DNA from: Candidatus Terrybacteria bacterium RIFCSPHIGHO2_01_FULL_43_35
GTDB taxonomy: Bacteria > Patescibacteriota > Minisyncoccia > Terrybacterales > GWB1-40-14
Length of the DNA stretch: 64,000 bases
Assembly: GCA_001822815.1 (NCBI GenBank)
Contig: MHSR01000013.1
Span: 18,808-82,807 of the forward strand
Direction of reading: 5' to 3'
This document shows, piece by piece, positions 5,345 through 52,279 of the stretch (within the stretch, counting starts at the first letter, position 1; every line of letters begins with the position of its first letter). The position numbers and the translations under genes are program-made. Under the pieces are notes generated by a model, which was not told the DNA's origin, ran no database searches, and worked only from the letters and a program-made list of their open reading frames with translations.

Positions 5345-5425
5345 GCCGAAGTGGCGGAATGGCAGACGCGCACGACTCAAAATCGTGTGAGGAAACTCAT
5401 GAGGGTTCGACTCCCTCCTTCGGCA
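5345..5425 (+). tRNA. tRNA-Leu (anticodon CAA), long variable arm, no encoded CCA
   Basis: Manual cloverleaf: acceptor GCCGAAG/CTTCGGC, D-arm, anticodon stem CACGA/TCGTG with loop CTCAAAA, long variable arm, T-arm GAGGG-TTCGACT-CCCTC. Confidence 0.85.
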
Positions 5426-5480
5426 CAAACGCAAAATTTAGTGCTGGGGCGCGCACCGACTTCTAGCACCAGAATGAATT

Positions 5481-5543
5481 CGGTGCGGTACAGGCAAAAT
5501 CGTGTGGAGAAATCCATGAGAGTTTGACTCTCTCCTCGCTCAC
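5481..5543 (+). pseudogene. Degenerate partial copy of the 3' half of tRNA-Leu (anticodon-stem remnant, variable arm, T-arm, acceptor 3' strand). It cannot form an acceptor stem.
   Basis: CAAAATCGTGTGGAGAAATCCATGAGAGTTTGACTCTCTCCTCGCTCACA is about 80% identical to the 3' half of the upstream tRNA-Leu. No complementary 5' acceptor strand lies upstream. Confidence 0.6.
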
Positions 5544-5883: not shown

Positions 5884-6183
5884 ATATTTCACCTCCTTTG
5901 AAAAACCTTGGAAAAGGCTTATTTTTTCTTGTTCTATTGTACCAATTCGCTCCAAATGAGCCAAAAACGTTGTCCACAGGGCTATTTTTAAACTTTCTTT
6001 AAAAAATTAAGTGGGTTTTGGGGTTGGGCGACTTAGCGAAAGCATTTGTCTGCAAAACGTAATTAAGCGCACAAGTGAAAACGAGGAAAAGGCTTATATT
6101 TATTGGCCGTTACGTGTTTTCACGCAGTGCGAAATGCGTTTTGCCAAGTGCTGAAGCGTCAAGCGAAACCCAAAAATTCACTT

Positions 6184-9883: not shown

Positions 9884-10130
9884 GCTAGTTGTTGCTCCCG
9901 AACCTTGCGAGGGATTGCAACAACTGCATCCCGAGCGCAGCGAGGGAGTACCTTAATGACGCTTGCCCACGAGCCGCGCGAGTGTTCCGACGATACGTCG
10001 GGACTAAAGCGCAACCGATGGATTACCTGTTAATGTTGGTGTTGCCCACACCATGCGTGGATGCAATTTCGTGCATCCCGACGCACGGTAAGGACTACTC
10101 TAACAACTTATTACTTCTATCATATCACCT
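9884..10130. repeat. Dispersed intergenic repeat element (family A) directly abutting the glmS start codon
   Basis: A 49-nt block (TTGCCCACGAGCCGCGCGAGTGTTCCGACGATACGTCGGGACTAAAGCG) is 48/49 identical to the reverse complement of 38772-38820. It shares the CTAGTTGTTGC start-proximal box with copies at 34581, 38858 and 39694. Confidence 0.7.
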
Positions 10131-10178: not shown

Positions 10179-12641
10179 TTAAACCACTATATTCAACAGT
10201 TTATCCTGCACATAAACGATCCGGTGTATTTTCTTATCCTTGGTGTACTTGAAAACATTTTCAAGATTAAGTGCTTTGGCCACAACCACGTCTTCAGCCA
10301 AACCGCTTGGCACTTTAAAAGTAGCACGCATTTTACCGTTAATCTGAACAACAACCAAAACCTCGTTCTGTTCTAAGGCAACTGGATCATAAACGGGCCA
10401 TCTTTCTTGTTGCACAGAATTATTATGCCCCAATTTTTCTTGCCAAAGTTCTTCGGCTAAATGAGGCGCGAAAGGAGAAACTAAAAGCACCAAGGTTTTG
10501 GCATCTGCTAAACTAACATTTTGCCTGTCCGCGTCATGGAGCGCGTTTACATACTCCATCAGTGAGCTGATAGCGGTATTAAATGAAAAATTCTCTATAT
10601 CTTTAGTGACCACTTTTATGGCCATGTTGCGCGCAAAATGAGTAGCGGCACTTCTGGTATTATCTTCGTTTAGAATTTTGCCGTCGTTTATCAAATTATA
10701 TATACGGCTCAAGAAACGCCATAAACCTATAATACCGCGCGTATCCCATGGTTTCTGATCTTCAAACGGTCCCAGAAAAAGCTCGTACATTCTTAAAGAA
10801 TCCGCGCCGTATAAATCTACAAGTTCATCCGGGTTGATTATATTACCTCTGGATTTAGACATTTTTTGTCCGTCCTGGCCCAAGATCAGACCCTGATTGA
10901 TCAATTTAGTGAAAGGTTCTTTGGTTGAAACCAGGCCAAGATCAAAAAGGAATTTATGCCAAAATCTTGCATAAAGCAGATGCAAAACGGCGTGCTCGAC
11001 ACCGCCGACATACAAATCAACGCCCATCCAATATTTTTCTTTTCTCTCGTCAACAATAGCCTTGTTGTTTTCTGGATCAATGAAACGCAGATAATACCAG
11101 CAGGAACCAGCCCACTGCGGCATAGTATTTGTTTCGCGTTTGGCTTTTGTACCGCAACGCGGGCATTCGGTGTTGACCCAACTGTCGATTTTTGCCAATG
11201 GCGATTCTCCGGTTCCGGTAGGTTCGTAACTTAAAATTTCTGGCAGCGTGAGAGGCAATGCCTCTTCTGGCAATGGCACAGCTCCGCATTTTGGACAATG
11301 AACTATCGGGATTGGCTCACCCCAATATCGCTGGCGGGAAAAAATCCAGTCGCGTAATTTATAGTTGACCATACCTCTGGCCAAACCATGCGCCTGCAGC
11401 CAGACAATAATCCTTGCTCGGGCATCTTCATTCCAAAGACCGTTGAATTCTCCCGAGTCTACCATGATGCCCTCGTGCGTGTGGGCTTCTTTTAACAAAC
11501 GATGTTTTTTGTTGTCTGGAGTAATAACCTCATTTATAGGCAGGTCATATTTCTTGGCAAAATCAAAATCTCTCTGATCGTGAGCCGGAACGGCCATTAT
11601 GGCTCCAGTTCCGTAATGCTCAAGGACATAGTCGGCCACAAAAACAGGTATTTTCTTTTTATCGGCGGGATTTATAGCCACTACACCCTCTAATTTAACG
11701 CCGGTTTTTTCGCCCGCCCCCCCCTGCCGCTCGCGGTCGCTTTTCTTTTTAGCCGCCTCTATATACTTTTCAACTTCGGACTTATTAGCAATGTGGCCTT
11801 CAAGCTTGTGCATCAGGGCGTGTTCCGGAGCCATGACAACATAGGTGGCGCCGAAAACAGTATCTGCCCTGGTAGTAAATACGGGCAATTCTAATTTCAA
11901 AGCAGATTTTTTGCCGGTCTTTTCAAGTTTAAAAATTATTTCTGCGCCATCAGATCTCCCAATCCAATTGCGCTGCATTTCTTTTATGTTTTCTGGCCAA
12001 TCAAGTTCGTCCAGATTATTAAGCAAACGGTCGGCATAAGCAGTAATCTTAAGCAGCCATTGTCTTATATTTTTTTTGATCACTGGCGTGCCGCAACGTT
12101 CACACTTGCCATCCACAACCTCTTCATTGGCCAGACCAGTGCCATCTTTTGGACAGAAGTTTATAGGCGCTTCAGATTCATAGGCCAATCCTTTTTCAAA
12201 AAGCTTTAAAAATATCCATTGCGTCCAGCGATAATACTCTGGATCGGTGGTATTTATTTCACGCTGCCAATCGTAAGAAAAACCCAAACTTTTAAGCTGG
12301 CTTCGGAAGCGCGTAATATTTTCCCCAACAGATTTTGAGGGGTGAGTTTTGCTTTTTATGGCGTAATTCTCTGCTGGTAAGCCAAAAGCGTCCCAACCCA
12401 TGGGATGCAAAACGTTTTTGCCGCGCATGCGCCAGTAACGACTCAAAACATCTGTAGCCGTGTATCCCTCGACATGACCGACATGCAAACCTTCGCCGGA
12501 TGGGTACGGAAACATGTCCAGAACATAATACTTGGATTTTTCATATCCGACATCCGGCAGATCTTGCGCGGCAAAAAGTTCTGGATGTTCTTCCCAGTAT
12601 TTCTGCCATCGCGCTTCAATTTTTTTAGGATTGTAGGGCAC
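10179..12641 (-). CDS. leuS: Leucyl-tRNA synthetase
   Basis: HVGH and KMSKS motifs, CP1 editing domain, 820 aa. Confidence 0.9.
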   Translation of the reverse strand: MPYNPKKIEARWQKYWEEHPELFAAQDLPDVGYEKSKYYVLDMFPYPSGEGLHVGHVEGYTATDVLSRYWRMRGKNVLHPMGWDAFGLPAENYAIKSKTHPSKSVGENITRFRSQLKSLGFSYDWQREINTTDPEYYRWTQWIFLKLFEKGLAYESEAPINFCPKDGTGLANEEVVDGKCERCGTPVIKKNIRQWLLKITAYADRLLNNLDELDWPENIKEMQRNWIGRSDGAEIIFKLEKTGKKSALKLELPVFTTRADTVFGATYVVMAPEHALMHKLEGHIANKSEVEKYIEAAKKKSDRERQGGAGEKTGVKLEGVVAINPADKKKIPVFVADYVLEHYGTGAIMAVPAHDQRDFDFAKKYDLPINEVITPDNKKHRLLKEAHTHEGIMVDSGEFNGLWNEDARARIIVWLQAHGLARGMVNYKLRDWIFSRQRYWGEPIPIVHCPKCGAVPLPEEALPLTLPEILSYEPTGTGESPLAKIDSWVNTECPRCGTKAKRETNTMPQWAGSCWYYLRFIDPENNKAIVDERKEKYWMGVDLYVGGVEHAVLHLLYARFWHKFLFDLGLVSTKEPFTKLINQGLILGQDGQKMSKSRGNIINPDELVDLYGADSLRMYELFLGPFEDQKPWDTRGIIGLWRFLSRIYNLINDGKILNEDNTRSAATHFARNMAIKVVTKDIENFSFNTAISSLMEYVNALHDADRQNVSLADAKTLVLLVSPFAPHLAEELWQEKLGHNNSVQQERWPVYDPVALEQNEVLVVVQINGKMRATFKVPSGLAEDVVVAKALNLENVFKYTKDKKIHRIVYVQDKLLNIVV

Positions 12642-12677
12642 AGTAAAAGTTAAAAATTTAAAGCGAAAAATGTAAAA

Positions 12678-14463: not shown

Positions 14464-15936
14464 CTAAATTCTAGGGAACAACGGCTCGCCTTTGTGTGGT
14501 TTGAGCCCTTGCTCCTCCCATGAACCCTGGGCCGATTTATCCAAACCTATCTGCTTAAAAATCTTTTCGGCGGTTTGCGGCAAAAACGGCTCAAGCATCC
14601 AGCCCATATTGACAATTAAATAGAGAAGGTTTGGAATGGCTTTTTGCCAATTATCACCTTGCCACGGCTTTTCGCGGTCAATATAAAGATTGCCTTCACG
14701 CGCAAGCTCATAGATGCGACTTAATGCCTCGCTGAAGCGAAATCTGGCCATAGCCGAGCCGTAAAAATCCCAGGCGTCGTTAACCGAAATTTCGAAATCG
14801 GCTGAAGACATTTTTAATGGTTTGGGGGATTTCTCCGCCAAAGCGCATACTCGCGCAACTAAGTTACCCAGACCATTGGCCAGTTCTGCGGAATAAACAT
14901 CAGCCATGCGCTCAGGGGTCATGTCGCCGTCTTCCATGGCAGGAATTTCCTTAAGCAAAAAATAGCGCACGGCGTCAGCTCCGTATTTGGCTATGAGCCC
15001 AAATGGATCAATAACATTGCCCAAAGACTTAGACATTTTTTGGCCGCCGGATTGAATATGACCATGCACCAGAATAGTTTTGGGTAGAGGTAATTTAACG
15101 ACCATAAGCATGGCCGGCCAAATTATGGCGTGAAAACGCATAATGTCCTTCCCTATCACATGTGCATCTGCGGGCCAGAACTTTTTGAACAGTTCGTCTT
15201 CGCTGCGGCCGAAACCCAAAGCGCTAATATAATTGACCAGCGCGTCGGCCCAAACATAAATAGTATGTTTTTTATCGCCAGGAACAGGTATGCCCCATTT
15301 TAAATCCTTGCTTGGCCGCGAAAAACTAACGTCTTCCAAGCCCTGGTTTATAAAATTCAATACTTCTGTTCGGCGATGTTCCGGAATTATTTTAATAATT
15401 CCCTGTTCATAAATATTAGCCAGCTTTTCTTGGAAATCAGAAAGCTTAAAAAAATAATTCTCTTCTTTTATGATTTCTGGTTTCCTATTATGATCCGAGC
15501 ACAAACCATTTACCAAATCGCTTGGCACTTTGAAAGCCTCGCAACCAGAACAGTAAAGGCCTTCGTAATATTTTTTGTATAAAACCTCTGCCGCGTTTAA
15601 ATTTTGCCACATTTCCTGCGCCCCTGGCCAATGAACCTTCTTATCTGATGTGCGGATAAATGAATCATTGCTTATGTTTAAGTCTTTGGCTAAATCACGG
15701 AAACGCTGGCTTACCTCATCAGCGAAAACCTGTGGGTCTTTGTCCGCTTCTTGCGCGGCTTTAACAATTTTCTGCCCGTGTTCGTCCGTTCCCGTTAGAT
15801 AATAGACGTCGTCTCCCAAAAGCCTTCTGTATCTTGCGATAACATCGGCTTGGCACAATTCCAAAGCAAAACCAACGTGTGGCGGCGCGTTAACATAGGC
15901 AATTGCGGTTGTAATGTAAAATTTTGATTTATTCAT
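14464..15936 (-). CDS. metG: Methionyl-tRNA synthetase (short form)
   Basis: N-terminal class I motif region (PPHVGFALE) and KMSKSLGN motif. Start at 15936. Confidence 0.9.
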   Translation of the reverse strand: MNKSKFYITTAIAYVNAPPHVGFALELCQADVIARYRRLLGDDVYYLTGTDEHGQKIVKAAQEADKDPQVFADEVSQRFRDLAKDLNISNDSFIRTSDKKVHWPGAQEMWQNLNAAEVLYKKYYEGLYCSGCEAFKVPSDLVNGLCSDHNRKPEIIKEENYFFKLSDFQEKLANIYEQGIIKIIPEHRRTEVLNFINQGLEDVSFSRPSKDLKWGIPVPGDKKHTIYVWADALVNYISALGFGRSEDELFKKFWPADAHVIGKDIMRFHAIIWPAMLMVVKLPLPKTILVHGHIQSGGQKMSKSLGNVIDPFGLIAKYGADAVRYFLLKEIPAMEDGDMTPERMADVYSAELANGLGNLVARVCALAEKSPKPLKMSSADFEISVNDAWDFYGSAMARFRFSEALSRIYELAREGNLYIDREKPWQGDNWQKAIPNLLYLIVNMGWMLEPFLPQTAEKIFKQIGLDKSAQGSWEEQGLKPHKGEPLFPRI

Positions 15937-15944
15937 TATCTTTA

Positions 15945-16182
15945 GGACTTACGCGCTTGCCGTTTTTCTCGCTCATCGGTAAGTATGCACTAGTTGTTTT
16001 CGCTCCTATCTGCGGGGACGATTATTGGCACTGCCACAAATTGGTCATCTTCCGGCAAACTCGCTCGCTTTCGCTCGCTCAAACAGTGCCTCACTACGAC
16101 CAATTCGTGGCGCCAATGTACGTCTCCTCGAATGTCGCGAAAATCAACTAGTGCATACAAAAAGTCAAGCGCGTAAGGTCCT
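15945..16182. mobile_element. MITE-like element with terminal inverted repeats in the metG leader
   Basis: The 15945-15990 end (GGACTTACGCGCTTG...GTATGCACTAGTTG) pairs with the 16145-16182 end (CAACTAGTGCATAC...CAAGCGCGTAAGGTCC). The internal sequence is homologous to 18045-18245. The left TIR begins 9 nt from the metG start codon. Confidence 0.65.
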
Positions 16183-18044: not shown

Positions 18045-18245
18045 TTTAGTTCTAGAAAAACGTGTCCGCCTGAACGATTTCCGAGGAAACGTAAATTGGC
18101 GCCACGAATCGGACGCCATGAGGCACTGTTTGACCCAGCCCCAGTTTTGCATTAACAAATCTATTTTTATCAAACGGACTGTTAGACAAAACTGGGGCTG
18201 AGGAGTTTGCCGGAAGGTGTCTGATTCGCAGCAATGCCAATAATC
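18045..18245. mobile_element. Second copy (opposite orientation) of the 15945-16182 element, with a nested hairpin element inserted
   Basis: The reverse complement matches blocks of the metG-leader element (ctgcggggacgattattggca, cttccggcaaactc, tcaaacagtgcctca, cgtggcgccaat). The CCCAGCCCCAGTTTT/AAAACTGGGGCTG hairpin at 18134-18203 is present only in this copy. Confidence 0.6.
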
Positions 18246-18281
18246 GTCCCCGCAGACGTGAGCGAAAGCATGACTGCGCTT

Positions 18282-24262: not shown

Positions 24263-24387
24263 GATGGAAGCTAAAAACGTAAAGTGCAAAACGAAAAATA
24301 ACTAAACGCGCGAAACGCTTTTGGCTATGCTTTAATTTTTTCGATATTCTTTTGCGCTTTTCGCTTTAAGCTTTACGCTATTGTAGA

Positions 24388-25149
24388 TTATACCACACGC
24401 TCTAAAAACCATGACACCGCAACTGGATTTGCTTCAACAAAGAAATCTTCTTTAAAAAGAAAGGTTATTAAGACTTTGTCCAAATGCTCGTAAACATGCT
24501 CCGGGATCTGGCCCGATATCCCTTCGTCCATAATGCGTTGAAGCGCGTATAGATCCTCTTTATCCAGTAAACATGAAGACGATTTCTCGCAGGAGCGACA
24601 TAAAATCTCGCCTGAAAAGTTAAAAACCGCACCGTCTTCAAATGATTGTTGGCACTGCGGGCATTTTTCAGATAAAACAAAGACCCCGGACATTTTAAGC
24701 ATTGACCAGAAAAACCTCTGCACGATTACCCAACATTTACGATCGCCTTGCCCGGCTTCAGTTCCAGAAAAAAACTGGGGCTGGGTGATCGCCCGAAAAG
24801 AAGCCAAAATGGTCAAAAACATGCGCTCGTCTTTTTCCGGCTGGACAACCAAAACGTCAATGATAAATGTTAAAAGTGTTGCGGCAAAAATATCTTTATA
24901 GCCAGACTCGCGCGTTATGAATGTCTCGATAGTTTTGGCGCCAGTAAGCAAAAGGTTGTTTTTGCCGCGCACAAAAGATAGTTCAACCAAAGAATAGGGC
25001 TGAAGGTCGGGGCGCAATTTCGCTTCCATCTTGCGTGCGCCTTTAGCCATAAAAGTCATTTTACCGAAAAGTTCAGTGTAGACGGTGGCCAAAATATCCG
25101 CTTCGCCGGATGTTTCGATTTTAATTATTATTGCGCGCGTTGAATCCAT
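24388..25149 (-). CDS. recO: DNA repair protein RecO
   Basis: N-terminal OB-fold-like region and a C-terminal CxxC...CxxC zinc finger (CPQCQQ...CRSC). Start taken at the internal Met (MDSTRAIIIKIE). Confidence 0.6.
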   Translation of the reverse strand: MDSTRAIIIKIETSGEADILATVYTELFGKMTFMAKGARKMEAKLRPDLQPYSLVELSFVRGKNNLLLTGAKTIETFITRESGYKDIFAATLLTFIIDVLVVQPEKDERMFLTILASFRAITQPQFFSGTEAGQGDRKCWVIVQRFFWSMLKMSGVFVLSEKCPQCQQSFEDGAVFNFSGEILCRSCEKSSSCLLDKEDLYALQRIMDEGISGQIPEHVYEHLDKVLITFLFKEDFFVEANPVAVSWFLERVV

Positions 25150-25468
25150 AAGAAAAGCGTAAAGTGTAAAACGAAAAGCGCAAAACAACAATGCAAAACT
25201 CAAAATAGATTAGTAAATCTACCGTTACCACTAATTTTCTTATATTTCTATACAAATTGAAAGGCCTCGCGTAGAAGAATTCTGTTTTGGTTGAGCGCTG
25301 TAATGGAAGCCGGTTAGCTGGCGGGCGAGTTCGTGAGCGTCATTAAGGCGAAGACCGAATTGGCCGGAACGGCTGTATAAATGGAGGGATCCCTTGCAGA
25401 CGCGAACGAATACGCCCGCCTGATAATTTATTTTCCTTAATACGTGAGCGTTAAGCGAAACCAAAATC

Positions 25469-28400
25469 TTATTTCGTCTTTCTAATCCCAATCCATATTT
25501 TACTGTCGCCAAGTGAAAACTCCCGTTCAATGATAAATGTTTCGTTCTTGCGCTTCTCCCCCGTCTCCACCCGTTTGGCATAAACATCTTCTTTTATTTC
25601 CTGCGCGCGCTCCATAATATCGCGTCCAAAGTTTTCACTGGCCCAAATGCGTAAAGTTATCCTCTCTTTTGGTTTCAAACCGGCATCTTTGCGAGTGTTT
25701 TGTATCTGCCGTACAAGCTCGCGCATGGCGCCAAGCAACATGAGGGTAGGCGTTATGTGTATATTCAGAGCCATACCTTGTTCGGTATCACGAAGCCATT
25801 CTTGCCCATCTGGCAAAGAAGAAAGTATAGCCACGCTGCCAACGTTCATTTCTTCACAAAGAACTCTAAAAAGACCCTTATCTAATTTTTCTTTATTGGC
25901 GACTTTGGCCGTAAGAACCAGGGACGAAAGCGGCTGGCGCACTTTATGTCCGCTTTGAGCCCTTAGTTTAAGCGCAATCTGAATTTTGGCGCGCAAAGCC
26001 TCCATACTTTTTTCAAGTTTGGAATTTTGGGTTTTTTTATTTATTTGAGGCATGCGCTCAAGATGCACCGAAGCCTTAAGCCCCAAGCCCAGCCATAACT
26101 GCTCGGCAACAAACGGAGCAAACGGGGCGGCCAGCAAAGCGGTTTGTTTCAAAACAAAACTAAGAACTTCTGTCACCTGGACAAGCTCTTTTTTATTTTT
26201 GGGATGCTGAAATCTTTCGCGCGAGCGTCTAATATACCAGTTGGACAGGTCATCAATCACAAAAGCGCTTAAAGCACGTGTGGCGGCGGTGATATCATAA
26301 TTATCCATGCGCTTAATAATCTGTTCGCTTGCGGTGGCAAGACGCGATAATATCCATTTATCAAGAATATCGGTTGACGCTGGCGCTTTCGTATTTTTTA
26401 GCGCGCTAGCGGCGTAAAGCTTAAAAAAGGATAGAGAATTCCAGAGCGTACCCAAAAATTTCTGCTGCGCGTCTTTAAGTTCTTCTTCGTTGAAGCGCTT
26501 AGTGTCTGACGGGTGATTCATGGTGTAGAAATACCAACGTACGGCATCGGCCCCGTAAAGATCGGTCATATCCCACGGGCTTATCGCATTGCCCAGAGAC
26601 TTGGACATTTTTTTGCCATTTTTATCTACCACGTGACCGGTCACAACAACATTCTTATACGGCGTGCTTTTGCCGAGCAAAACAGAAACAGCCATGAGGG
26701 TATAAAACCATCCGCGCGTTTGATCTACGGCCTCGCAGATGAAATCAGCCGGGAAAGAAAGAGCTTTTTTATTTCCGCTCTTCTCAACGCGGTTTTTATT
26801 TTCAAAAGGATAATGCCACTGGGCAAAAGGCATGGCACCGGAATCAAACCAGACATCAATTACTTCACTCACCCGTTTCATAGGATGCGCGCACTTTTTA
26901 CACGCAAAAGTCAGGTCATCAACAAAAGGACGGTGCAGATCCAAACGGCCAGTATCGTCTGAAGGCGGCATTGAAGAAAGGATTTTTTCTTCTTTAGCAA
27001 AATCGGGATATGTCAGTTTGGGCGTACCGGCTTTTTTTGTCTTGAGATACGGCTCAACATATTCTTTATCCTCCGCGCCAAGCAAAATACCCTTAAGCAG
27101 CAGTAAGGGATCGCCGTGCCCAACCAACACAATGGTTTTATCGTTATAGATTTTCTCGAGATTCTGTATAAAATAATACATGCGGTTTCTAAGATCGAAC
27201 CAATTTTCGCCATTTAATGGCTTTTTGTGCCAGCGTTCGCCTGGCTTGTGTTCCAGGAAATCGTGATATTCTTTTATCGGCATGCTGTTGAATGCTCCCA
27301 AATCAAACTCGCGCAGTTCTGTTTCTTTTTTGGGCTTGATACCGCACGCTTTCCCCATAATTTCCGCCGTATCATTTGCCCTTTGAAGTGGTGAGGTGAA
27401 AATAATATCTGGTTTGATCCGCGCAATTCTTTTTGCGGCAGCGCGAGCCTGTTTTATACCGCGAGCGGTCAATGGATTACGTTTGTTTTCGGGCCAAGAA
27501 GAAACCCAACCCTGTACATTAGCCCTGGCTTGGGCATGACGAACCAAAATATATTTATTTTTTGTCTGTGAACGGGACAAAAGCTCTTTTATTGAGCCGA
27601 TGACTTCAGTTTGACCACATTGTTCGCATTTCCAAACAGGCAGTGGTATGCCCCAGTAGCGCTCGCGCGATATTGCCCAATCCTTAACTTCGTTCAGCCA
27701 CTCTCCGAATCTACCTCTTTTTATGTGTTCCGGTACCCAATTTACTTTTTCATTAGCTTCGCGGAGCTGTTTGCGCAATGCCGACATGCGTATGAACCAA
27801 CTTTGGCGGGCGTAATAAAGTAGTGGAGTTTTGCATCGCCAACAGAAAGGATAATCGTGAGTATAAAGTTCTTCCTTTAAAATAAGGTTGCGCTGATGTA
27901 AATATGAATTTATCACTATTTCTGCTTCTTTTGATTTGACCGGCAAGCCCGCCAGACCAGCATTAACCGTGTTCAAAAATCTTCCGTCCTCGCCTACTGT
28001 ATGGACTTTCGGCAAGCCAATCTTTGAGCCCAAATTATAATCGTCCTCGCCATACATGACCGCGGTATGAACTACGCCGGTGCCGTCTTCAGTGGTCACG
28101 AAATCGGCGGCATAAACTTTATGACTTTTTTCGTTTTTGGTTTCTGGGATATCAAAAAGGGGTTCATATTCAAGCCCCACTAACCTTGAACCCTTAATTT
28201 CGGCTAAAATATTTAACGGCTCTTTAAATAAACGCGCTGCGGCATCTTTAGCCAAAATATAAACTTCACCGCTGCCAACCTGCGCTTGTACGTAATCTAT
28301 GTCGTTGTTTACAGCCAAAGCCACGTTACCCGGCAAGGTCCAAGGAGTTGTAGTCCAACTTAATATGTAAGTATGTTTTTTGTCTTTTATTCTAAATTTA

Positions 28401-28999
28401 ATATAAACCGAATTTTCGGTGACCGATTCATATCCTTGAGCAACTTCGTGCGAAGCCAAAGCCGTACCACAGCGCGTACAATAAGGCACGACCTTAAAAT
28501 CCTGCTCCAATAATTTTTTATTCCATATCTCTTTTATTATTCGCCAAACGCTTTCTATGTAAGAATTATCGTAAGTAACGTATGGATCTGTAAGATCCAA
28601 CCATAAGCCTATACGCTCGGTTAAGCGCTGCCATTCATCTTTATAGCGCCATACGGATGCTTTGGCTTTCGCGTTAAACTCGGCAATGCCATAATCTTCA
28701 ATTTCTTGCTTGGTTTTGAAGCCCAATTCTTTCTCAACTCCAATTTCAACCGGCAAGCCATGTGTATCCCAACCGGCTTTACGCTCAACCAAAAAACCTT
28801 GCATGGTTTTGTAACGCAAAAAAGCATCTTTGATTGCGCGAACCAAAACATGATGTATACCTGGCTGGCCGTTGGCTGTGGGCGGACCTTCAAAAAAAAC
28901 AAAACGCGGTGCGCGGGCGCGCCTCTTTAAACTTTTGGCAAAGATTTTATTATCTTCCCAATATCTAAGTATTTCTTTTTCTTGTTCGGCAAAGTTCAT
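25469..28999 (-). CDS. ileS: Isoleucyl-tRNA synthetase with an inserted histidine-phosphatase-like domain
   Basis: The N-terminal class I signature region reads ...GIHHV..., and WAISRERYWG, KMSKSLGN and the anticodon-binding domain are all present. Total length is 1176 aa, including an extra domain at aa 482-660. Confidence 0.9.
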   Translation of the reverse strand: MNFAEQEKEILRYWEDNKIFAKSLKRRARAPRFVFFEGPPTANGQPGIHHVLVRAIKDAFLRYKTMQGFLVERKAGWDTHGLPVEIGVEKELGFKTKQEIEDYGIAEFNAKAKASVWRYKDEWQRLTERIGLWLDLTDPYVTYDNSYIESVWRIIKEIWNKKLLEQDFKVVPYCTRCGTALASHEVAQGYESVTENSVYIKFRIKDKKHTYILSWTTTPWTLPGNVALAVNNDIDYVQAQVGSGEVYILAKDAAARLFKEPLNILAEIKGSRLVGLEYEPLFDIPETKNEKSHKVYAADFVTTEDGTGVVHTAVMYGEDDYNLGSKIGLPKVHTVGEDGRFLNTVNAGLAGLPVKSKEAEIVINSYLHQRNLILKEELYTHDYPFCWRCKTPLLYYARQSWFIRMSALRKQLREANEKVNWVPEHIKRGRFGEWLNEVKDWAISRERYWGIPLPVWKCEQCGQTEVIGSIKELLSRSQTKNKYILVRHAQARANVQGWVSSWPENKRNPLTARGIKQARAAAKRIARIKPDIIFTSPLQRANDTAEIMGKACGIKPKKETELREFDLGAFNSMPIKEYHDFLEHKPGERWHKKPLNGENWFDLRNRMYYFIQNLEKIYNDKTIVLVGHGDPLLLLKGILLGAEDKEYVEPYLKTKKAGTPKLTYPDFAKEEKILSSMPPSDDTGRLDLHRPFVDDLTFACKKCAHPMKRVSEVIDVWFDSGAMPFAQWHYPFENKNRVEKSGNKKALSFPADFICEAVDQTRGWFYTLMAVSVLLGKSTPYKNVVVTGHVVDKNGKKMSKSLGNAISPWDMTDLYGADAVRWYFYTMNHPSDTKRFNEEELKDAQQKFLGTLWNSLSFFKLYAASALKNTKAPASTDILDKWILSRLATASEQIIKRMDNYDITAATRALSAFVIDDLSNWYIRRSRERFQHPKNKKELVQVTEVLSFVLKQTALLAAPFAPFVAEQLWLGLGLKASVHLERMPQINKKTQNSKLEKSMEALRAKIQIALKLRAQSGHKVRQPLSSLVLTAKVANKEKLDKGLFRVLCEEMNVGSVAILSSLPDGQEWLRDTEQGMALNIHITPTLMLLGAMRELVRQIQNTRKDAGLKPKERITLRIWASENFGRDIMERAQEIKEDVYAKRVETGEKRKNETFIIEREFSLGDSKIWIGIRKTK

Positions 29000-30256: not shown

Positions 30257-31285
30257 TTATTTATTTTCGGTACCACCAGTATCGGCGGTTTCTTCGCCAA
30301 GCCGCCGGAAAGAACCTTTGCCAAAAATACTCTCTATTAGACGCGCCAACGGAATTAAATTGCCGCTGAAATTTGCTCGCGCAAATATATCAAAAACCTC
30401 TTGCCTATTCTCAAATCGGCCGTGACTTTTTTCTATAATTTCATCTATCAATCTCCAAAGTTTATCACGTTCATTCTTGCGCCCAACAAATACATCTCTT
30501 CCTTTAGTTTTCGGTGGAAATTCAGCAACTATAGTAGCGATGGTTTCTTTGTCTGGTTCTATTTTCTCAAAAATCGTGAGTATTTCTCTGGCAGAAGGTA
30601 TAGAATATACTTCTTCCATGGCTTCCCGCTCATTCTGCTCTTGTGTTGGATTAAAGCGGTGAACAATATGCAATAATGATTCTTTCAATTTGTTTGTGGC
30701 TTCTATCTCTTCACTATATAATGGATTATTTTGCATTTCCTCGTCGTAAAATTTCTTGGCCAATATTTCGGCAATAGCCTCTTCTATATCTGAAAAGTGT
30801 TTTATGCGACTCTCTCGATCTGATACGATAATGCCGCTTCTATACATACGGTGCTTCTTTTGCGCATCTATTTGCGCAGCTTTGTAGGACAATTGGTGGA
30901 ACATTTCATGCACAAGCGTTGTGGCTACATCTACATTCGACTCCAGATCGCGATCCACTACTATCTCTTGTGCCAAAGACCTGTGTATACCGCCGTAGAA
31001 TTCCCCGTTGGTGAGTTCGGATGCTCCTCCTGATCTTACAAAATGTATTTTATGTGGCGGTATTGGCTTAGGGTCTCCGCCGTAAAACTTTGCCATTCTA
31101 TATGCAAATTCTTCTGCGTTTTGAATAATCGTCTTGTCCTGTTCAGTAAGCCGTATTTCGTACTTGGCAATATCTTGATCGCCAATTTGCAGAAGTTCCT
31201 CTTGTAATTCGTGCTTAAGTCTAGCTCGCTCTCCCTCTGTTCCGCCCACCACTCTTTCAAATTGTGTTTCAAAATTTTCTAGCAT
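30257..31285 (-). CDS. Hypothetical cytoplasmic protein with an HExxH zinc-metallopeptidase-like motif
   Basis: A single HEMFH motif in a 342-aa acidic protein. No signal peptide. Confidence 0.45.
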   Translation of the reverse strand: MLENFETQFERVVGGTEGERARLKHELQEELLQIGDQDIAKYEIRLTEQDKTIIQNAEEFAYRMAKFYGGDPKPIPPHKIHFVRSGGASELTNGEFYGGIHRSLAQEIVVDRDLESNVDVATTLVHEMFHQLSYKAAQIDAQKKHRMYRSGIIVSDRESRIKHFSDIEEAIAEILAKKFYDEEMQNNPLYSEEIEATNKLKESLLHIVHRFNPTQEQNEREAMEEVYSIPSAREILTIFEKIEPDKETIATIVAEFPPKTKGRDVFVGRKNERDKLWRLIDEIIEKSHGRFENRQEVFDIFARANFSGNLIPLARLIESIFGKGSFRRLGEETADTGGTENK

Positions 31286-31519
31286 GATTCCATAAAACCA
31301 TGGATTTATTGCTTGCGCAAACCTTTCGATTTACTCGGGTCTTCGACTCCCGCGGGACTGAGTCCTCGGGACGAACGTCTGAGAGTCTCAGACTCGTTGA
31401 GGTAAACAAAAACAGCTCTATCTAAAACAGAACTGCTTTTGCGCCAAATATCTTTAACAAAAAGTATTTGAGCGTGGAACGAATTTACTTATCTTTTCTT
31501 ATTTTCAAAGTTGGTGTTG

Positions 31520-33851: not shown

Positions 33852-34580
33852 TTATTTCCAAGCCAGAGAAAACAAGGCTCTCAACGTTTCAGCAATTTCC
33901 TTACTTTCAATAATGATGCCCATGGGTTTCCCGCGAAAGACGGCCATGGCTACTTTGTTACCATAAATAATCAAGTCGCTAGCAATACCCGCTTTGAGAG
34001 GCAAATATTTTGTTTCAACTCCCTGCGCATATTTCGCAATCGGTCCGGCTTTATGCGTATAGAATGTCTGTCCGCGAACATGTTTCTTGGAGCGACGCAA
34101 ACGGTAAACTTCACGCTCACTTTCAGAAAATAGCTCTTCATATTCGTCTCGTGGGAATATTTCCACTATAGAACTAGTCTTGGTGCGCAGAAAATCTTCC
34201 TGCATGGCCTTCAGGCCTTCCTTGCCCTCGAAAAAACGCACGCGCGGATGTTCCCTGGCCTGATCATAAAGGGCTTTAAGACGAGGAAGAATTTTTTCGG
34301 TTTCGGTTCGTTTAATTTTTAATTCCTGCTCGTTGCGATCTAGAAGTCGCATCAGCCTTTCGGGAAATTCTGCTGAAAGCAATCTCTTGCTTCCCTGTTC
34401 GTGCCAACTAACCAAACCAAGCTTAGCTAATTCTTCAAGAGCCAAATATGCCGTGGGTCTTCGTATGCCAGATTTCTTGGCGATATCTTGTACAGTTGCC
34501 TGACCCAGTTCCAAAACCGCCAAATAAACTCTGGCTTCCTTATCCGAAAGTCCTATGCTTTTTAGTTCTGGCTCGAACAT
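33852..34580 (-). CDS. TrmB-family transcriptional regulator
   Basis: N-terminal winged-helix TrmB signature (LSDKEARVYLAVLELGQATVQDIAKKSGIRRPTAYLALEELAKLGLV). Confidence 0.55.
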   Translation of the reverse strand: MFEPELKSIGLSDKEARVYLAVLELGQATVQDIAKKSGIRRPTAYLALEELAKLGLVSWHEQGSKRLLSAEFPERLMRLLDRNEQELKIKRTETEKILPRLKALYDQAREHPRVRFFEGKEGLKAMQEDFLRTKTSSIVEIFPRDEYEELFSESEREVYRLRRSKKHVRGQTFYTHKAGPIAKYAQGVETKYLPLKAGIASDLIIYGNKVAMAVFRGKPMGIIIESKEIAETLRALFSLAWK

Positions 34581-34900
34581 GTGCTAGTTGTTGCCCACGA
34601 CCCAGCTCTAATTTCTGAGCGTTTGGGCATTTCTAAAATTATAATGTATAATTTTATCTTGGTTTAAAACTTTTATCGAATTGTTTTTGGTAAATTAGGG
34701 CTGGATCGCGGTTGCAACGACGTGCATCTCTTCGAGTTCATCGAATCTGAGATTCTCTGAATCGAATGATCTGAAGACTCATCAGACGTTCGTCTCTTCG
34801 AGCCTGAGGGCTCCGCAGAGCCTGAACGGCCCGAGGACTCAGTCCCGAGGGAGTCTGAACGACCTAAGGAGCAAAGCGACGAGGGATTACTTTTCATTTA
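34581..34900. repeat. Composite repeat region (family A start-box plus degenerate serine-codon-like tandem units) abutting the TrmB-like gene start
   Basis: GTGCTAGTTGTTGCCCACGA lies directly after the start codon on the + strand. The 34700-34890 stretch resembles 39720-39800 and 31330-31400 (gcatctcttcgag..ctgaagactc..cgagggattac). Confidence 0.6.
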
Positions 34901-34977
34901 TTATAGCATTAAAAAGATTGAGCCCGGCCCGAGTTTTATCTAAAACTGGAGCTGGGCTCTTTGTTTTGGCTTAGCGG

Positions 34978-35151
34978 TTAAAACCAGATGACGGCCTGCG
35001 TTCTACCAGACGAACCTGCACCGGAACAGGAACCAGAATCAGGCGCGGCGCTGGTCTAGGTGACACGCGATCCAGAACGCTTGCGCCGAAATTCTTGGCT
35101 ATCCGCGAGAGCTTGGCTCCGCGGGATGAACGATTCACCATGGAATGTATC
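34978..35151 (-). CDS. Small GC-rich ORF (57 aa) with a perfect Shine-Dalgarno, hypothetical
   Basis: AAGGAGGATACATTCC-ATG context and about 58% GC. Below the ORF-track length cutoff. Confidence 0.4.
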
Positions 35152-35315
35152 CTCCTTACGGCTTGCTGATATGAAAAGTTCTGTTGGGGATAACGAGAAC
35201 TACTAAATACTATAAGTTTAAGGACTAAGTTTAAGAGTCTCGTTACCCCACTAATTACATTATAACACTAAAATAATGTTTGTCAAGAATTCGCCTCGCC
35301 TCCGTTTATCTGTTT

Positions 35316-37058: not shown

Positions 37059-37104
37059 AACTGTATATTTATTATAATACCATGCTAAATTGGGATTAGA
37101 GATT

Positions 37105-38741: not shown

Positions 38742-38871
38742 AAATTAAAATAATGTAATCCTTCGACTACGCTTTAGTCCCGACGTATCGTCGGGACACT
38801 CGCGCGGCTCGTGGGCAATCCTTCGATAAACTCAGGATTGTCCTGAGCAAAGTCGAAGGACAACAACTAGC
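38742..38871. repeat. Family A repeat element inserted between rpmI and rplT
   Basis: Contains the 49-nt block that is the reverse complement of 9962-10010 (1 mismatch). It ends in CAACAACTAGC immediately before the rplT ATG. Confidence 0.7.
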
Positions 38872-39227: not shown

Positions 39228-39258
39228 AAAACCCCGCTTCAAAGCGGAGTTTTTATTA
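39228..39258. terminator. Bidirectional intrinsic terminator (AAAACCCCGCTT-caa-AGCGGAGTTTTT)
   Basis: Stem-loop flanked by an A-run and a T-run, between the rplT (+) end and the NUDIX (-) end. Confidence 0.7.
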
Positions 39259-39693
39259 GTGTTTAGCAAGAAACGCCTCGGCTTTCTTTATCAGATCTTT
39301 AGCGTTCTTGTATGTAGCAAGTTTAACGGCTTCATTATACGGCAACCATACATAACCGGTATGTTCGTGCGATAAACGGACATTACCGCCATAAGCTTCA
39401 CCCAAGAAAAATGTTACTGTTTTTAAGGTTCGGGTAGGCCGGCCACGTTTTTTTTGAGCATAAGACCACATCCAATATTGCATAACCTCTCTAAAATTAT
39501 TAAAGAGTTTAATGTTTTTTAAGCCAGTTTCTTCAAATATTTCTCGGCGCGCGGCTTGTTCTGCCTTCTCCCCCGCCTCAAGATGGCCTTTGGCAAAATC
39601 CCAGTGTCCGGCTTCGTAATGCAGAAGCAGATACTGCCTTATTTTTTTATAGCGCCGGAAGATAATCGCACCGGCTGAAATTTCTGGTCTCAT
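39256..39693 (-). CDS. NUDIX hydrolase
   Basis: Nudix box GHLEAGEKAEQAARREIFEETGL. Confidence 0.8.
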   Translation of the reverse strand: MRPEISAGAIIFRRYKKIRQYLLLHYEAGHWDFAKGHLEAGEKAEQAARREIFEETGLKNIKLFNNFREVMQYWMWSYAQKKRGRPTRTLKTVTFFLGEAYGGNVRLSHEHTGYVWLPYNEAVKLATYKNAKDLIKKAEAFLAKH

Positions 39694-39880
39694 GTGTTAG
39701 TTGTTGCCCGCGAGTTTGCTCGCGGATGCAACATGCATCTCTTCGAGTCTGAAGACTCTTCAGAGTCTGAACGACCCGAGCGAAGTCGAGGGATTACCTG
39801 CCAATTTTGCCCTCGCGGCAGCGGGGTGCAAAATTGTGCATCCTGAGCGGAGCGAAGGATTACCTAAAATTATACCATCA
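39694..39880. repeat. Family A repeat element abutting the NUDIX start codon
   Basis: GTGTTAGTTGTTGCCCGCGAG start-box. Internal units gcatctcttcgagtctgaagactcttcagagtctgaacgac, and CGAGGGATTACCT / CGAAGGATTACCT ends. Confidence 0.65.
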
Positions 39881-43897: not shown

Positions 43898-44099
43898 ATA
43901 TTTATTATACCTTGGCCAAACGCATACCCCAACTTTATTGGATTTTTATATTGTTGTTAACGAAAAGGTTATTTTTCTAGATGGCTCTTAGAGTTATCGG
44001 GGTTCACAAAAATATTTAAATCTGCTTGAGCCAACATTTGGGATACTGAACCAAAAACACCCCTTGAGGGGTGTTTTGTCGAGTGATACCGCGCTGAAT

Positions 44100-51149: not shown

Positions 51150-51169
51150 GGATAAAAATTATATTGCGT

Positions 51170-51421
51170 CTAATTAGCTAAAAATACCTTGTCTCCGGCT
51201 TTTGTTTTCTGGTCAAGTTTCATGCCTATTTCATCTCCGGTGCTAGCGCTTGCTATTGCCTTATGATCGACTTCCATAGAGGAAACTTGTTGGATGAAAT
51301 CGGCACTTGCGCCTTTAACGTGTATACTATCCCCTATTTTAAGTGGTCCTGAGAGCTTAAGTACGGCAACTCCGATATTGCCGTAAAAGTGTGTTATGGT
51401 AGCAATTTGTTTCTCTTCCAT
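51170..51421 (-). CDS. Small beta-barrel protein (83 aa), EF-Tu domain-2-like, hypothetical
   Basis: Short ORF preceding the LOG-family gene. Assignment is tentative. Confidence 0.35.
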   Translation of the reverse strand: MEEKQIATITHFYGNIGVAVLKLSGPLKIGDSIHVKGASADFIQQVSSMEVDHKAIASASTGDEIGMKLDQKTKAGDKVFLAN

Positions 51422-52034: not shown

Positions 52035-52279
52035 AAAGAAGTGCAAAACGTAAAACTAAAGGCGCAAAACAAAAACCCAAGCCCTTAATATACTTTAACT
52101 CTGGATTGCTTTTACTTTTTCGCTTTGCACTTTACGCTTTTATTATACCTCGCTAGATAAATTGTGTGAAATTATTATAGAAATAAGATTAGATTAAATC
52201 ACCAAACAGCCCCGGCAACCAAAAAGTCTTGATGGACTTTTTGGTTCTCGGCTTTATCGTAATTTTCTAACGGGACAGG

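What the first reader, a model, noticed from the sequence alone, without database searches (positions are those of the whole stretch)
38742..38871. Repeat family A: dispersed elements ending in a CAACAACTAGC box flush against start codons, including an insertion splitting rpmI and rplT
Four copies were found: 9884-10130 at glmS, 34581-34625 onward at the TrmB-like gene, 38742-38871 at rplT, and 39694-39880 at the NUDIX gene.

All place the motif (G)CAACAACTA(G/A)C 0-2 nt from the start codon on the coding strand. All fold that box into a hairpin with an upstream complementary arm, e.g. GTTGTTGC-22nt-GCAACAAC at glmS and TCCTTCGA-26nt-TCGAAGGA CAACAACTAGC ATG at rplT.

The glmS and rplT copies share a 49-nt block at 48/49 identity in inverted orientation.

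Distal ends read CGA(G/A)GGATTAC(C/T)T followed by AT-rich sequence.

The rpmI-rplT junction is normally a few bp; here it is 137 bp. This indicates a recent insertion.

The elements would occlude the initiation region, so they may act as mobile translational or transcriptional control cassettes.
Basis: seen in the sequence. Interest (0 to 1): 0.68.

Follow-up and report, generated by a model that had tools for sequence, protein, structure and literature searches.

The report
Repeated folded leaders abutting start codons
In this tiny groundwater bacterium (Candidatus Terrybacteria) and its relatives, one repeated about 70-base folded cassette forms the untranslated leader of many unrelated housekeeping genes and ends in a conserved 9-base-pair helix 2-5 bases before the start codon, where a ribosome-binding site would normally sit.

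Summary

**What is in the window.** It comes from Candidatus Terrybacteria RIFCSPLOWO2_01_FULL_44_24. The leaders of glmS, a TrmB-like gene, rplT and a NUDIX gene are built from tandem units of about 70 nt.

**The unit.**
- Hairpin P1: GUAAUCCY-UCG..CUC-RGGAUGC.
- A 9-bp helix P2: AGUUGUUGC/GCAACAACU, enclosing a second hairpin of the same type.
- Then 2-5 nt and the true AUG. There is no Shine-Dalgarno sequence.

**Related sequences.** A metagenome scan whose pattern did not include ATG found units before seven more genes: ftsZ, recR, rpmA, rpsT, aspS and two of unknown function. All abut a start codon.

**Covariation.** P2 covaries. There are five different 9-bp versions, one entirely different (CATAGTGGC/GCCACTATG). 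Thirteen of 22 modelled pairs show compensatory changes.

**Turnover.** Orthologous loci show gain and loss. The rpmI-rplT gap is 7 nt in a distant relative, 75 nt with one unit in a closer one, and 137 nt here.

**Building block.** The 20-nt hairpin is REP-like and occurs in several phyla. No Rfam family matches.

**Function.** Most likely a repeat-borne, cis-acting mRNA leader that sets translation initiation. Whether it represses, docks ribosomes or is a processing site is untested.

The parts
9884..9954 (-). glmS leader, terminal unit. P1 hairpin, then P2 helix (GCAGTTGTTGC / GCAACAACTAGC) enclosing hairpin 2. It ends flush with the glmS ATG (9881-9883).
   Evidence: Covariance-model hit at 89.6 bits; sequence; fold.
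9955..10033 (-). glmS leader, middle unit of a different subtype. It contains the 64-nt block 9963-10026, which is 92% identical in inverted orientation to 38755-38818.
10034..10101 (-). glmS leader, first (promoter-proximal) unit. It begins GTAGTCC and its 3' end is degenerate (GGGCAACACCAACATTAAC).
   Evidence: Covariance-model hit at 44 bits; sequence.
34581..34890 (-). Composite leader of the TrmB-family gene. From 5' to 3' on the minus strand:
- GTAATCCCTCG at 34890.
- Several hairpin modules (about 34720-34870).
- The arm GTCGTTGC.
- An AT-rich stretch of about 100 nt.
- GGGCAACAACTAGC-AC, then the ATG (34578-34580).
   Evidence: Modules are shared with 39731-39793 and 31326-31401.
38755..38818 (+). 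rplT leader, 5' block. GTAATCCTTCG, then hairpin CCCGACG-TAT-CGTCGGG, then ACTCGCGCGGCTCGTGGGCAA. It has the same subtype as the glmS middle unit.
38819..38860 (+). rplT leader: an inverted doublet of the basic hairpin (TCCTTCGATAAACTCAGGA-TTG-TCCTGAGCAAAGTCGAAGGA). It is nested between GGGCAA and CAACAACTAGC.
   Evidence: Sequence; fold at z = -6.8.
38861..38871 (+). rplT leader: the box CAACAACTAGC, directly followed by the rplT ATG (38872). It has no upstream partner arm here and is predicted to be unpaired.
39694..39799 (-). NUDIX leader, terminal unit. P1 is interrupted by an inserted hairpin module. Then GATGCATGTTGC / hairpin CCGCGAG-CAAA-CTCGCGG / GCAACAACTAAC-AC, then the ATG (39691-39693).
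   Evidence: covariance-model partial hit at 39696-39759.
39800..39866 (-). NUDIX leader, first unit. It starts 5 nt after a TGgTATAAT extended -10-like box.
   Evidence: Covariance-model hit at 54.2 bits; sequence.
31326..31401 (-). Related hairpin modules in the leader of gene 30257-31285. They are the same module family as in the TrmB and NUDIX leaders. They are not a full unit and carry no box.
   Evidence: (I6).

Best explanation
These are modular, REP-like structured repeat units that have become the 5' leaders of many housekeeping mRNAs in Terrybacteria and related Parcubacteria.

**Architecture**
- One to four units sit head-to-tail between an AT-rich, -10-like promoter region and the start codon. 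They are always in the gene's sense orientation.
- The last unit folds as hairpin P1, immediately followed by a 9-bp helix P2 that encloses a second hairpin.
The AUG lies 2-5 nt beyond its foot.
- No Shine-Dalgarno sequence is present.

**Proposed mechanism**
- The cassette acts in cis on the mRNA.
- P2 gates or positions the ribosome at the start codon. It either closes the -4 to -12 region, or a competing helix (GGAUGCA/UGCAUCC) opens it.
- The promoter-proximal P1 hairpin protects the 5' end.
- The cassette spreads and turns over by duplication, insertion and recombination among leaders.

**Shown here:** the family, its modular anatomy, its position and orientation, the helices with covariation, and gain and loss between relatives.

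**Inferred:** that it is transcribed as the leader, that it acts on translation, and in which direction.
For: **Position and orientation**
- The four window copies sit 0-2 nt from true start codons.
- The metagenome scan used a pattern without ATG. All 11 genuine units (7 distinct genes) have ATG 2-4 nt after ...CTA. None of the 19 chance matches does.
- Further flush units lie before groEL (L165:500-572), rplT of a relative (L170) and glmS of a 64%-identical relative (L177).
- Every full unit found by covariance model R1 lies 5' of a gene, in sense orientation.

**Helix P2 covaries.** Five versions were found, all 9 bp:
- AGUUGUUGC/GCAACAACU
- CUUGGUUGC/GCAACCAAG
- AGUUUUUGC/GCAAAAACU
- CUUUGUUGU/ACAACAAAG
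- CAUAGUGGC/GCCACUAUG

**Pair counts on the model-fitted alignment**
- 92.6% of cells form a standard pair.
- 13 of 22 pairs have changes on both sides.
- Versions with partners slid by 1-3 columns give at most 5 such pairs.

**Other points**
- An orthologous element persists at rpmI-rplT in a relative with 80% identical L20, with a diverged but still paired sequence.
- Element genes lack an SD, while other genes in the window have AAGGAGG or TATAAT-N6-12-ATG.
- First units start 2-9 nt after -10-like boxes.
- In tandem arrays only the last unit keeps the full 3' arm next to the ATG.
Against: - There are no expression data. Transcription start sites are inferred only from -10-like boxes, and the strict -35/-10 scan finds no promoter directly upstream of the elements.
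- Predicted occlusion of -15..-1 is strong only at glmS. It is average at TrmB and NUDIX and low at rplT.
- The window's rplT copy keeps the box sequence without its partner arm, so pairing cannot be the whole story.
- G-U against A-C counts do not show which strand folds.
- The alignment used for pair counts was fitted to the model.
- Covariation between subfamilies could reflect requirements of a mobile master copy rather than selection at each locus.
- One full unit (L157:3133-3251) is not flush. It is followed by TATAAT-N7-ATG.
- A repressive helix in front of groEL, ftsZ, ribosomal protein and aminoacyl-tRNA synthetase genes would seem costly.
Confidence: 0.42

Rival explanations
1. RNA processing signal ('punctuation'). 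An endoribonuclease such as RNase III cuts in or at the foot of P2/hairpin 2. This releases an mRNA with a very short or absent leader, which is then translated by the leaderless pathway that many genes of this organism appear to use. The hairpins left behind stabilise the upstream fragment.
For: - Many genes in the window have TATAAT 6-12 nt before the ATG, which suggests leaderless or short-leader mRNAs.
- The AUG is always 2-5 nt from the helix foot.
- One copy sits inside an operon, between rpmI and rplT, where a new 5' end would have to be made.
- P2 plus hairpin 2 stack into a hairpin of about 15-17 bp.
- From background knowledge: Neisseria Correia/NEMIS repeats in 5' UTRs are RNase III substrates, and human mitochondrial mRNAs are made leaderless by excision of flanking tRNAs.
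Against: - There are no cleavage data.
- The helix is shorter than classical RNase III substrates of about 20-22 bp.
- No known self-cleaving ribozyme or tRNA-like fold was detected (Rfam; ARAGORN).
- The rplT copy lacks P2.
Confidence: 0.2
2. Selfish, non-autonomous DNA repeats of REP/REPIN or MITE type. Their hairpins serve transposition as single-stranded DNA, and they insert preferentially, or are tolerated only, between promoter and start codon. They have no host function.
For: - The basic 20-nt hairpin has a GTA[A/G] tag followed by an imperfect palindrome. The tandem mismatches read G-A/A-G on the other strand, as in GTAG-tagged REPs.
- The hairpin occurs in dozens of copies, as inverted doublets, in Archangium MAGs, and in several other phyla.
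- There are nested and tandem arrangements.
- The rplT doublet may be flanked by a CAA duplication.
- Relatives at 84-86% GlmS identity lack the glmS array, and the NUDIX element is absent from the relative L170.
- Assemblies break inside the repeat.
- G-U against A-C counts do not favour RNA.
Against: - All 12 independent loci are in sense orientation.
- A DNA enzyme is unlikely to recognise start codons of unrelated genes, yet the ends are flush.
- The full unit has no terminal inverted repeats.
- No transposase was seen. The window was not exhaustively screened and the rest of the genome was not available.
- The element persists at the orthologous rplT junction with its helix maintained.
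- REPs lie mainly downstream of genes (PMC3733652), the opposite of what is seen here.
Confidence: 0.2
3. A common operator for a trans-acting factor (protein, small RNA or ligand). This would make these housekeeping genes one post-transcriptional regulon, with a riboswitch-like choice between P1/P2 and the alternative helix GGAUGCA/UGCAUCC.
For: - Loop motifs UCG...CUC are conserved in both hairpins, and TGCA...TGCA is invariant.
- The alternative helix is 90.7% paired, with 2 pairs changed on both sides.
- The two folds are within a few kcal/mol of each other in several units.
Against: - The copies are far more alike (85-100%) than members of a riboswitch class within one genome.
- Tandem arrays and rapid gain and loss are not typical of operators.
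- The genes are functionally unrelated.
- Covariation for the alternative helix is weak, and one of its pairs is broken in 11 of 17 sequences.
- No Rfam family matches.
Confidence: 0.1

Closest known systems
GTAG-tagged REP elements, BIMEs and REPINs (Di Nocera et al. 2013, PMC3733652; Bertels and Rainey 2011)
   Same: - The building block is a 20-26-nt imperfect palindrome preceded by GTA[A/G].
- Non-complementary dinucleotides lie between stem and loop.
- It occurs singly, in tandem and as inverted doublets, and is assembled into mosaics.
- G-T pairs are tolerated.
   Different: - REPs lie mostly downstream of genes and in either orientation. Here complete units are always 5' of a gene, in sense orientation, and end at the start codon.
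- The tag is mostly GTAA and is partly paired.
- The same hairpin sequence is shared across phyla, whereas REP families are usually lineage-specific.
- No RAYT has been identified.
Pneumococcal BOX elements (boxA-boxB-boxC)
   Same: They are modular, with a variable number of internal modules. They are intergenic, often near 5' ends, form stable RNA structures, and are reported to alter expression of neighbouring genes (background knowledge).
   Different: - No sequence similarity.
- BOX elements are not positioned at a fixed distance from the start codon and do not replace the ribosome-binding site.
Neisseria Correia/NEMIS repeats and enterobacterial ERIC repeats
   Same: They are small dispersed repeats co-transcribed into 5' UTRs, where the hairpin changes mRNA processing and stability (background knowledge; the authors of PMC3733652 also worked on these).
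   Different: - Correia elements have 26-bp terminal inverted repeats, a TA target duplication and an IHF site. None of these is present here.
- Their insertion points relative to the ATG vary.
Structured leaders that dock on the 30S platform (rpsO pseudoknot, thrS operator), RNA thermometers and the glmS ribozyme
   Same: They have a helix immediately 5' of the start codon that determines ribosome access, and a cis-acting leader upstream of glmS and ribosomal protein genes.
   Different: - Those are single-gene, non-repeated elements that carry an SD.
- Here one repeated cassette serves many unrelated genes and has no SD.
- No Rfam model matches, including the glmS ribozyme and the L20 leader.

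Membership tests
REP / GTAG-tagged REP (BIME, REPIN) | Short (20-40 nt) imperfect palindrome able to form a stem-loop | tested here: met
   The hairpin is ATCCY-TCG-N4-6-CTC-RGGAT. Y and R covary: CCT..AGG against CCC..GGG. In some copies the mismatch pairs are replaced by Watson-Crick pairs (CCCGAC..GTCGGG).
REP / GTAG-tagged REP (BIME, REPIN) | Conserved unpaired GTAG-type tetranucleotide at one end | tested here: inconclusive
   Most copies have GTAA. Three have GTAG: glmS unit 1, L163 and L145. In the unit model the tag pairs with ..TGC, and in Flavobacteriales copies with GGATTAC. The paper allows degenerate second and third positions but not a fourth-position A.
REP / GTAG-tagged REP (BIME, REPIN) | Located mainly downstream of genes or between convergent genes, in either orientation | tested here: not met
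   All full units found with model R1 lie 5' of a gene in sense orientation. Single hairpins in other CPR genomes occur in mixed contexts.
REP / GTAG-tagged REP (BIME, REPIN) | High copy number in the genome and an associated RAYT transposase | not testable with these tools
   Only 64 kb of the genome was available, plus fetched loci. There are four leaders in the 64 kb.
MITE | Terminal inverted repeats and a target-site duplication | tested here: not met
   The unit ends (AGGTAATCC... and ...CAACAACTAGC) are not inverted repeats. Only the 42-nt doublet inside the rplT copy has inverted arms and a possible CAA duplication. That is a single case in a CAA-repeat context.
Correia / NEMIS | 26-bp terminal inverted repeats, TA duplication, IHF site, RNase III cleavage of the transcribed hairpin | tested here: not met
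   The sequence shows no such terminal repeats or TA duplication. Cleavage cannot be tested here.
Known cis-regulatory RNAs and ribozymes (Rfam 15: riboswitches, ribosomal protein leaders including the L20 leader, glmS ribozyme, hammerhead and others) | Match to the family covariance model | tested here: not met
   The gathering-threshold scan of the whole window found only tmRNA and two tRNAs. Permissive scans of all four leaders gave nothing on the elements. The best was CRISPR-DR34 at E = 0.77, 17.9 bits against a gathering score of 35.
tRNA-like or tRNA-derived element | Cloverleaf detectable by a tRNA finder | tested here: not met
   ARAGORN finds only tRNA-Leu, tRNA-Arg and tmRNA.

The most novel reading that the evidence does not exclude
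The cassette is a portable translation-start signal that replaces the Shine-Dalgarno sequence. It would work in one of two ways:
- The 9-bp P2 helix docks where the SD-anti-SD duplex normally sits and presents the AUG 2-5 nt downstream. This would be a repeat-borne, IRES-like ribosome-docking module.
- It is a cleavage ('punctuation') signal that converts leadered or polycistronic transcripts into leaderless mRNAs.

Either way, a small mobile repeat would be distributing a start-site determinant among housekeeping genes of CPR bacteria.
Probability: 0.2. Interest if true: 0.85.

Novelty: new variant of a known kind. Interest (0 to 1): 0.62.

Why it matters
- **A constrained repeat.** Small dispersed repeats are usually treated as junk or as 3' stabilisers. 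Here one repeat family supplies the whole 5' leader of essential genes (groEL, ftsZ, glmS, ribosomal proteins L20, L27 and S20, AspRS). Its geometry at the start codon is strictly conserved and backed by covariation, and it has no SD.
- **A testable case.** It is concrete and sequence-defined, so it can be used to ask how CPR/Patescibacteria start translation and how a repeat can rewire initiation across many genes at once. These organisms are uncultivated, have reduced ribosomes and have many apparently leaderless genes.
- **Annotation.** One relative's L20 is called 12 residues too long, because its start was placed inside the element.
- **Assembly.** Contigs break inside the repeat.
- **The cross-phylum hairpin.** A 20-nt REP-like hairpin shared across phyla has no recognised carrier and deserves its own study.

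Tried and rejected
- **Known RNA families.** Rfam at gathering and permissive thresholds matched nothing on the elements. A CUGAUGAG string in the TrmB leader is not a hammerhead.
- **Literature.** Full-text searches for the hairpin sequence, for the peptide-like translations of the repeat, and for CPR plus Shine-Dalgarno/leaderless found nothing on this element. The search on CPR taxa plus REP/MITE/RAYT terms also found nothing on it. It did turn up the REP literature, from which I read PMC3733652.
- **Promoters.** The strict -35/-10 scan found no promoter directly upstream of the elements, so start-site claims rest on -10-like boxes only.
- **Strand test.** G-U against A-C counts to decide which strand folds were uninformative: 8 against 10 once one invariant pair is removed.
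- **Occlusion.** Occlusion of the initiation region as a general property is not borne out by predicted pairing in the window's four genes.
- **SD mimic.** AGGTAATCC as a complement of the 16S 3' tail, and the box as an rRNA mimic, were recalled resemblances only. They are not testable without the 16S gene and were dropped.
- **Integron attC sites.** The core motifs do not fit.
- **Phage carriage.** The hairpin has no match in IMG/VR.
- **L010 as an 'empty' rpmI-rplT site.** The contig simply ends inside the repeat.
- **First viral scan.** The scan with the box plus ATG gave only chance-like single hits.
- **Single-hairpin context.** Context of the single hairpin in other CPR genomes was mixed, and my crude ORF calls make the distances unreliable.

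Full report
**Source and gene context.** The L20 protein of the window is found, with identical flanks, on contigs from NCBI (GCA_001822905.1, MHSX01000014.1), JGI Rifle samples and ENA assemblies. One source names the organism Candidatus Terrybacteria bacterium RIFCSPLOWO2_01_FULL_44_24, which belongs to the CPR/Parcubacteria. Pfam confirms the genes next to the four claimed copies:
- GlmS (8048-9883, minus strand)
- a TrmB-family regulator (33852-34580, minus strand)
- L35 (38522-38734) and L20 (38872-39219)
- a NUDIX hydrolase (39256-39693, minus strand)

The start codons are the true ones: GlmS begins MCGI and L20 begins MSRVKRG.

**Check of the observation.**
- GCAACAACTAGC with at most one mismatch occurs four times in the window, and each copy is 0 or 2 nt before one of these ATGs on the coding strand. 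My arithmetic gives about 0.28 such matches expected by chance.
- At two mismatches the motif alone is not above chance.
- The 49-nt block at 48/49 identity is real. It sits inside a 64-nt block at 59/64 identity between 9963-10026 and 38755-38818.
- The distal motif CGARGGATTACCT is enriched: 10 matches against 2.0 expected.
- The rpmI-rplT gap is 137 nt.
- Some independent assemblies end inside the repeat, as expected for a genuine repeat.

**Anatomy.** Read in the direction of the gene, each leader is a head-to-tail array of units.
- A canonical unit reads (A)AGGTAATCCYTCG-N4-6-CTCRGGATGC-AGTTGTTGC-AA-[hairpin 2]-GCAACAACT-AGC.
- glmS has three units (9884-9954, 9955-10033, 10034-10101).
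- NUDIX has two (39694-39799, 39800-39866).
- TrmB has one long composite, with extra hairpin modules and an AT-rich insert (34581-34890).
- rplT has a rearranged one. It consists of a 64-nt block (38755-38818), an inverted doublet of the basic hairpin (38819-38860), and then the box (38861-38871).
- Internal units end in degenerate versions of the box, such as GGGCAAAATTGGC or GGGCAACAATAA. Only the unit next to the ATG keeps it intact.
- First units begin 2-9 nt after -10-like boxes, for example TGgTATAAT-tttag-GTAATCC at NUDIX. The strict two-hexamer promoter scan finds nothing there, so the transcription start is inferred.
- Other genes of the window have either AAGGAGG or TATAAT 6-12 nt before the ATG. 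The four element genes have neither.

**Related sequences.** I had one scan of species-representative genomes and one of JGI metagenomes.
- The genome scan used the 5' hairpin (GTAATCCYTCG N3-4 CGCTCRGG).
- These include dozens of copies in Archangium MAGs, where the hairpins form inverted doublets. Others are in Parcubacteria, Saccharibacteria, Flavobacteriales, Chlorobiota, WOR-3 and more.
- Y and R almost always covary. The 20-nt hairpin is therefore a widespread building block with the anatomy of GTAG-tagged REPs (read in PMC3733652).
- One hit, a Parcubacteria MAG (L034), carries a complete unit ending ...GGGAGCAACAACTAAC-ATG in front of ftsZ.
- The metagenome scan used GATGCA N1-6 GTTGCA N15-30 GCAACAACTA, deliberately without ATG. 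It returned 30 loci.
- Eleven are genuine units, in front of ftsZ, recR, rpmA (L27), rpsT (S20), aspS and two unknown proteins. Every one has ATG 2-4 nt after the pattern.
- The 19 other matches are chance hits in coding sequence, and none has the ATG.

**Structure.**
- RNAalifold on ten units predicts P1 (GUA.AUCC../..GGAUGC) and P2 (UGUUGC/GCAACA), with an inner stem CC(A/C)C/G(U/G)GG.
- I built covariance model R1 without the ATG.
- In the window it finds units only at the four leaders.
- In the fetched loci it finds new copies, all 5' of genes and in sense orientation.
- The new copies give independent compensatory changes in P2:
  - groEL leader, GTTTTTGC/GCAAAAAC
  - rplT of a relative, CTTGGTTGC/GCAACCAAG
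  - a non-flush copy, CTTTGTTGT/ACAACAAAG
  - glmS of a 64%-identical Terrybacteria, CATAGTGGC/GCCACTATG, followed by GC-ATG
- On the model-fitted alignment of 17 distinct units, 92.6% of cells are paired and 13 of 22 pairs have changes on both sides. With partners slid by 1-3 columns, at most 5 pairs do.
- The caveat is that this alignment leans towards the model.
- The conserved feature is therefore a 9-bp helix whose foot is 2-5 nt from the AUG, not the box sequence itself.
- A competing helix, GGAUGCA/UGCAUCC, would exclude P1, P2 and hairpin 2. It is 90.7% paired but shows only two pairs with double changes. In several units the two folds are within a few kcal/mol of each other. I regard this as suggestive only.

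**Turnover at orthologous loci.**
- In a relative with 65% identical L20, the rpmI-rplT gap is 7 nt and carries no element (L173).
- In one with 80% identity the gap is 75 nt and holds a single canonical unit. That unit begins with the same aataatGTAATCCTTCGACT as in the window (L170).
- The junction was therefore expanded by insertion. The insertion predates the split of these two lineages, and the window's copy was later remodelled.
- The NUDIX orthologue in L170 has no element.
- The glmS leaders of the 84-86% identical relatives have none, while a 64% relative has one divergent unit.

**What it is not.**
- Rfam gives no match at gathering or permissive thresholds for any of the four leaders. 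That covers the glmS ribozyme, the L20 leader and the self-cleaving ribozymes.
- ARAGORN sees no tRNA-like fold.
- The unit has no terminal inverted repeats.
- The hairpin is absent from IMG/VR viral contigs.
- Full-text searches found no description of the element.

**Interpretation.** Four observations point to selection on the transcript at the point of translation initiation rather than to insertion preference alone:
- strict sense orientation at 12 independent loci
- the fixed distance to true start codons of unrelated genes
- a helix maintained by compensatory change
- the absence of an SD

I therefore favour a cis-acting, repeat-borne leader that sets ribosome access at the AUG, with P1 as a 5' protective hairpin (confidence about 0.4).

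The direction of the effect is open. Predicted occlusion is strong at glmS but not at rplT, where the partner arm has been lost and the box is unpaired. A purely repressive element in front of groEL, ftsZ and ribosomal protein genes also seems costly.

The rivals that remain are:
- a processing or 'punctuation' site that creates short-leader mRNAs for an organism that seems to rely on leaderless initiation
- selfish REP- or MITE-like DNA tolerated only in this position
- a shared operator for a trans-acting factor

G-U against A-C counts could not settle which strand folds.

**Verdict.** The finding is genuine and statistically solid, and my searches found no published description. It is best filed as a new variant of the small dispersed structured repeats (REP/BIME, BOX, Correia, ERIC). 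The unusual property is that a conserved helix abuts the start codon where a ribosome-binding site would be. The family, its position and the helix hold up. 'Recent insertion', 'all copies sequester the box' and mobility itself do not, or remain unproven.

Noticed in passing
window 15986-16152 and 18075-18270: Two inverted copies (about 82% identical) of a different repeat of about 190 nt. One is in the leader of metG (14464-15936, minus strand). The other is just 3' of the AI-2E transporter gene. Copy 1 is bounded by GTATGCACTAGTTGTTTTCGC / GCGAAAATCAACTAGTGCATAC, which contains a box-like AACAACTAG. Copy 2 lacks those 9 nt.
   Followed up: partly
window 5345-5536: tRNA-Leu(CAA) at 5345-5426 is followed 117 nt downstream by an 83% copy of its 3' half (5495-5536). 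This looks like the footprint of an element integrated at the tRNA gene.
   Followed up: no
window 12637-12677, 24268-24407, 25128-25204, 52039-52149: A separate A/G-rich repeat family (AAGCGTAAAGTGTAAAACGAAAAGCGCAAAAC and its complement) lies in several intergenic leaders.
   Followed up: no
window 34720-34870, 39731-39793, 31326-31401; also L133, L144, L157: A second hairpin-module family is inserted inside units. Its motifs are GACTCTGAAGAGTCTTCAGACTCGAAGAG and GACTCCCKCGGGACTGAGTCCTCGGG. It is also present in a Saccharibacteria MAG. One copy contains CTGATGAG but is not a hammerhead by Rfam.
   Followed up: partly
window 35259-35286 (minus strand) and about 34970-35140: A perfect TTGACA-16-TATAAT promoter with a TG extension lies upstream of a 56-residue ORF that other assemblies call. 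A terminator-like hairpin follows, immediately upstream of the TrmB leader.
   Followed up: no
L020-L139 (Archangium sp. MAGs JAYVFP01, JANODF01, JBKJSE01; Flavobacteriales, Chlorobiota, WOR-3, Saccharibacteria): The same 20-nt hairpin, GTAA-TCCY-TCG..CTC-RGGA, occurs in unrelated phyla. Archangium has dozens of copies arranged as REPIN-like inverted doublets, often at contig ends. None occurs in IMG/VR viral contigs.
   Followed up: partly
window-wide; e.g. 43898-43920, 37059-37085, 51150-51170: Many genes have TATAAT 6-12 nt before the ATG, which suggests leaderless or very short leaders. Others have a strong AAGGAGG. The organism appears to use several initiation modes.
   Followed up: partly
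L170 6001-6384 (protein P0003): In a relative, L20 is annotated 12 residues too long (127 aa). The gene caller started inside the repeat unit, while the conserved MTRVKRG start is at 6037.
   Followed up: yes
window 25469-28999: The isoleucyl-tRNA synthetase carries an inserted or fused histidine-phosphatase (His_Phos_1) domain, giving 1176 aa. A more distant relative (L173) has the two as separate adjacent genes.
   Followed up: no
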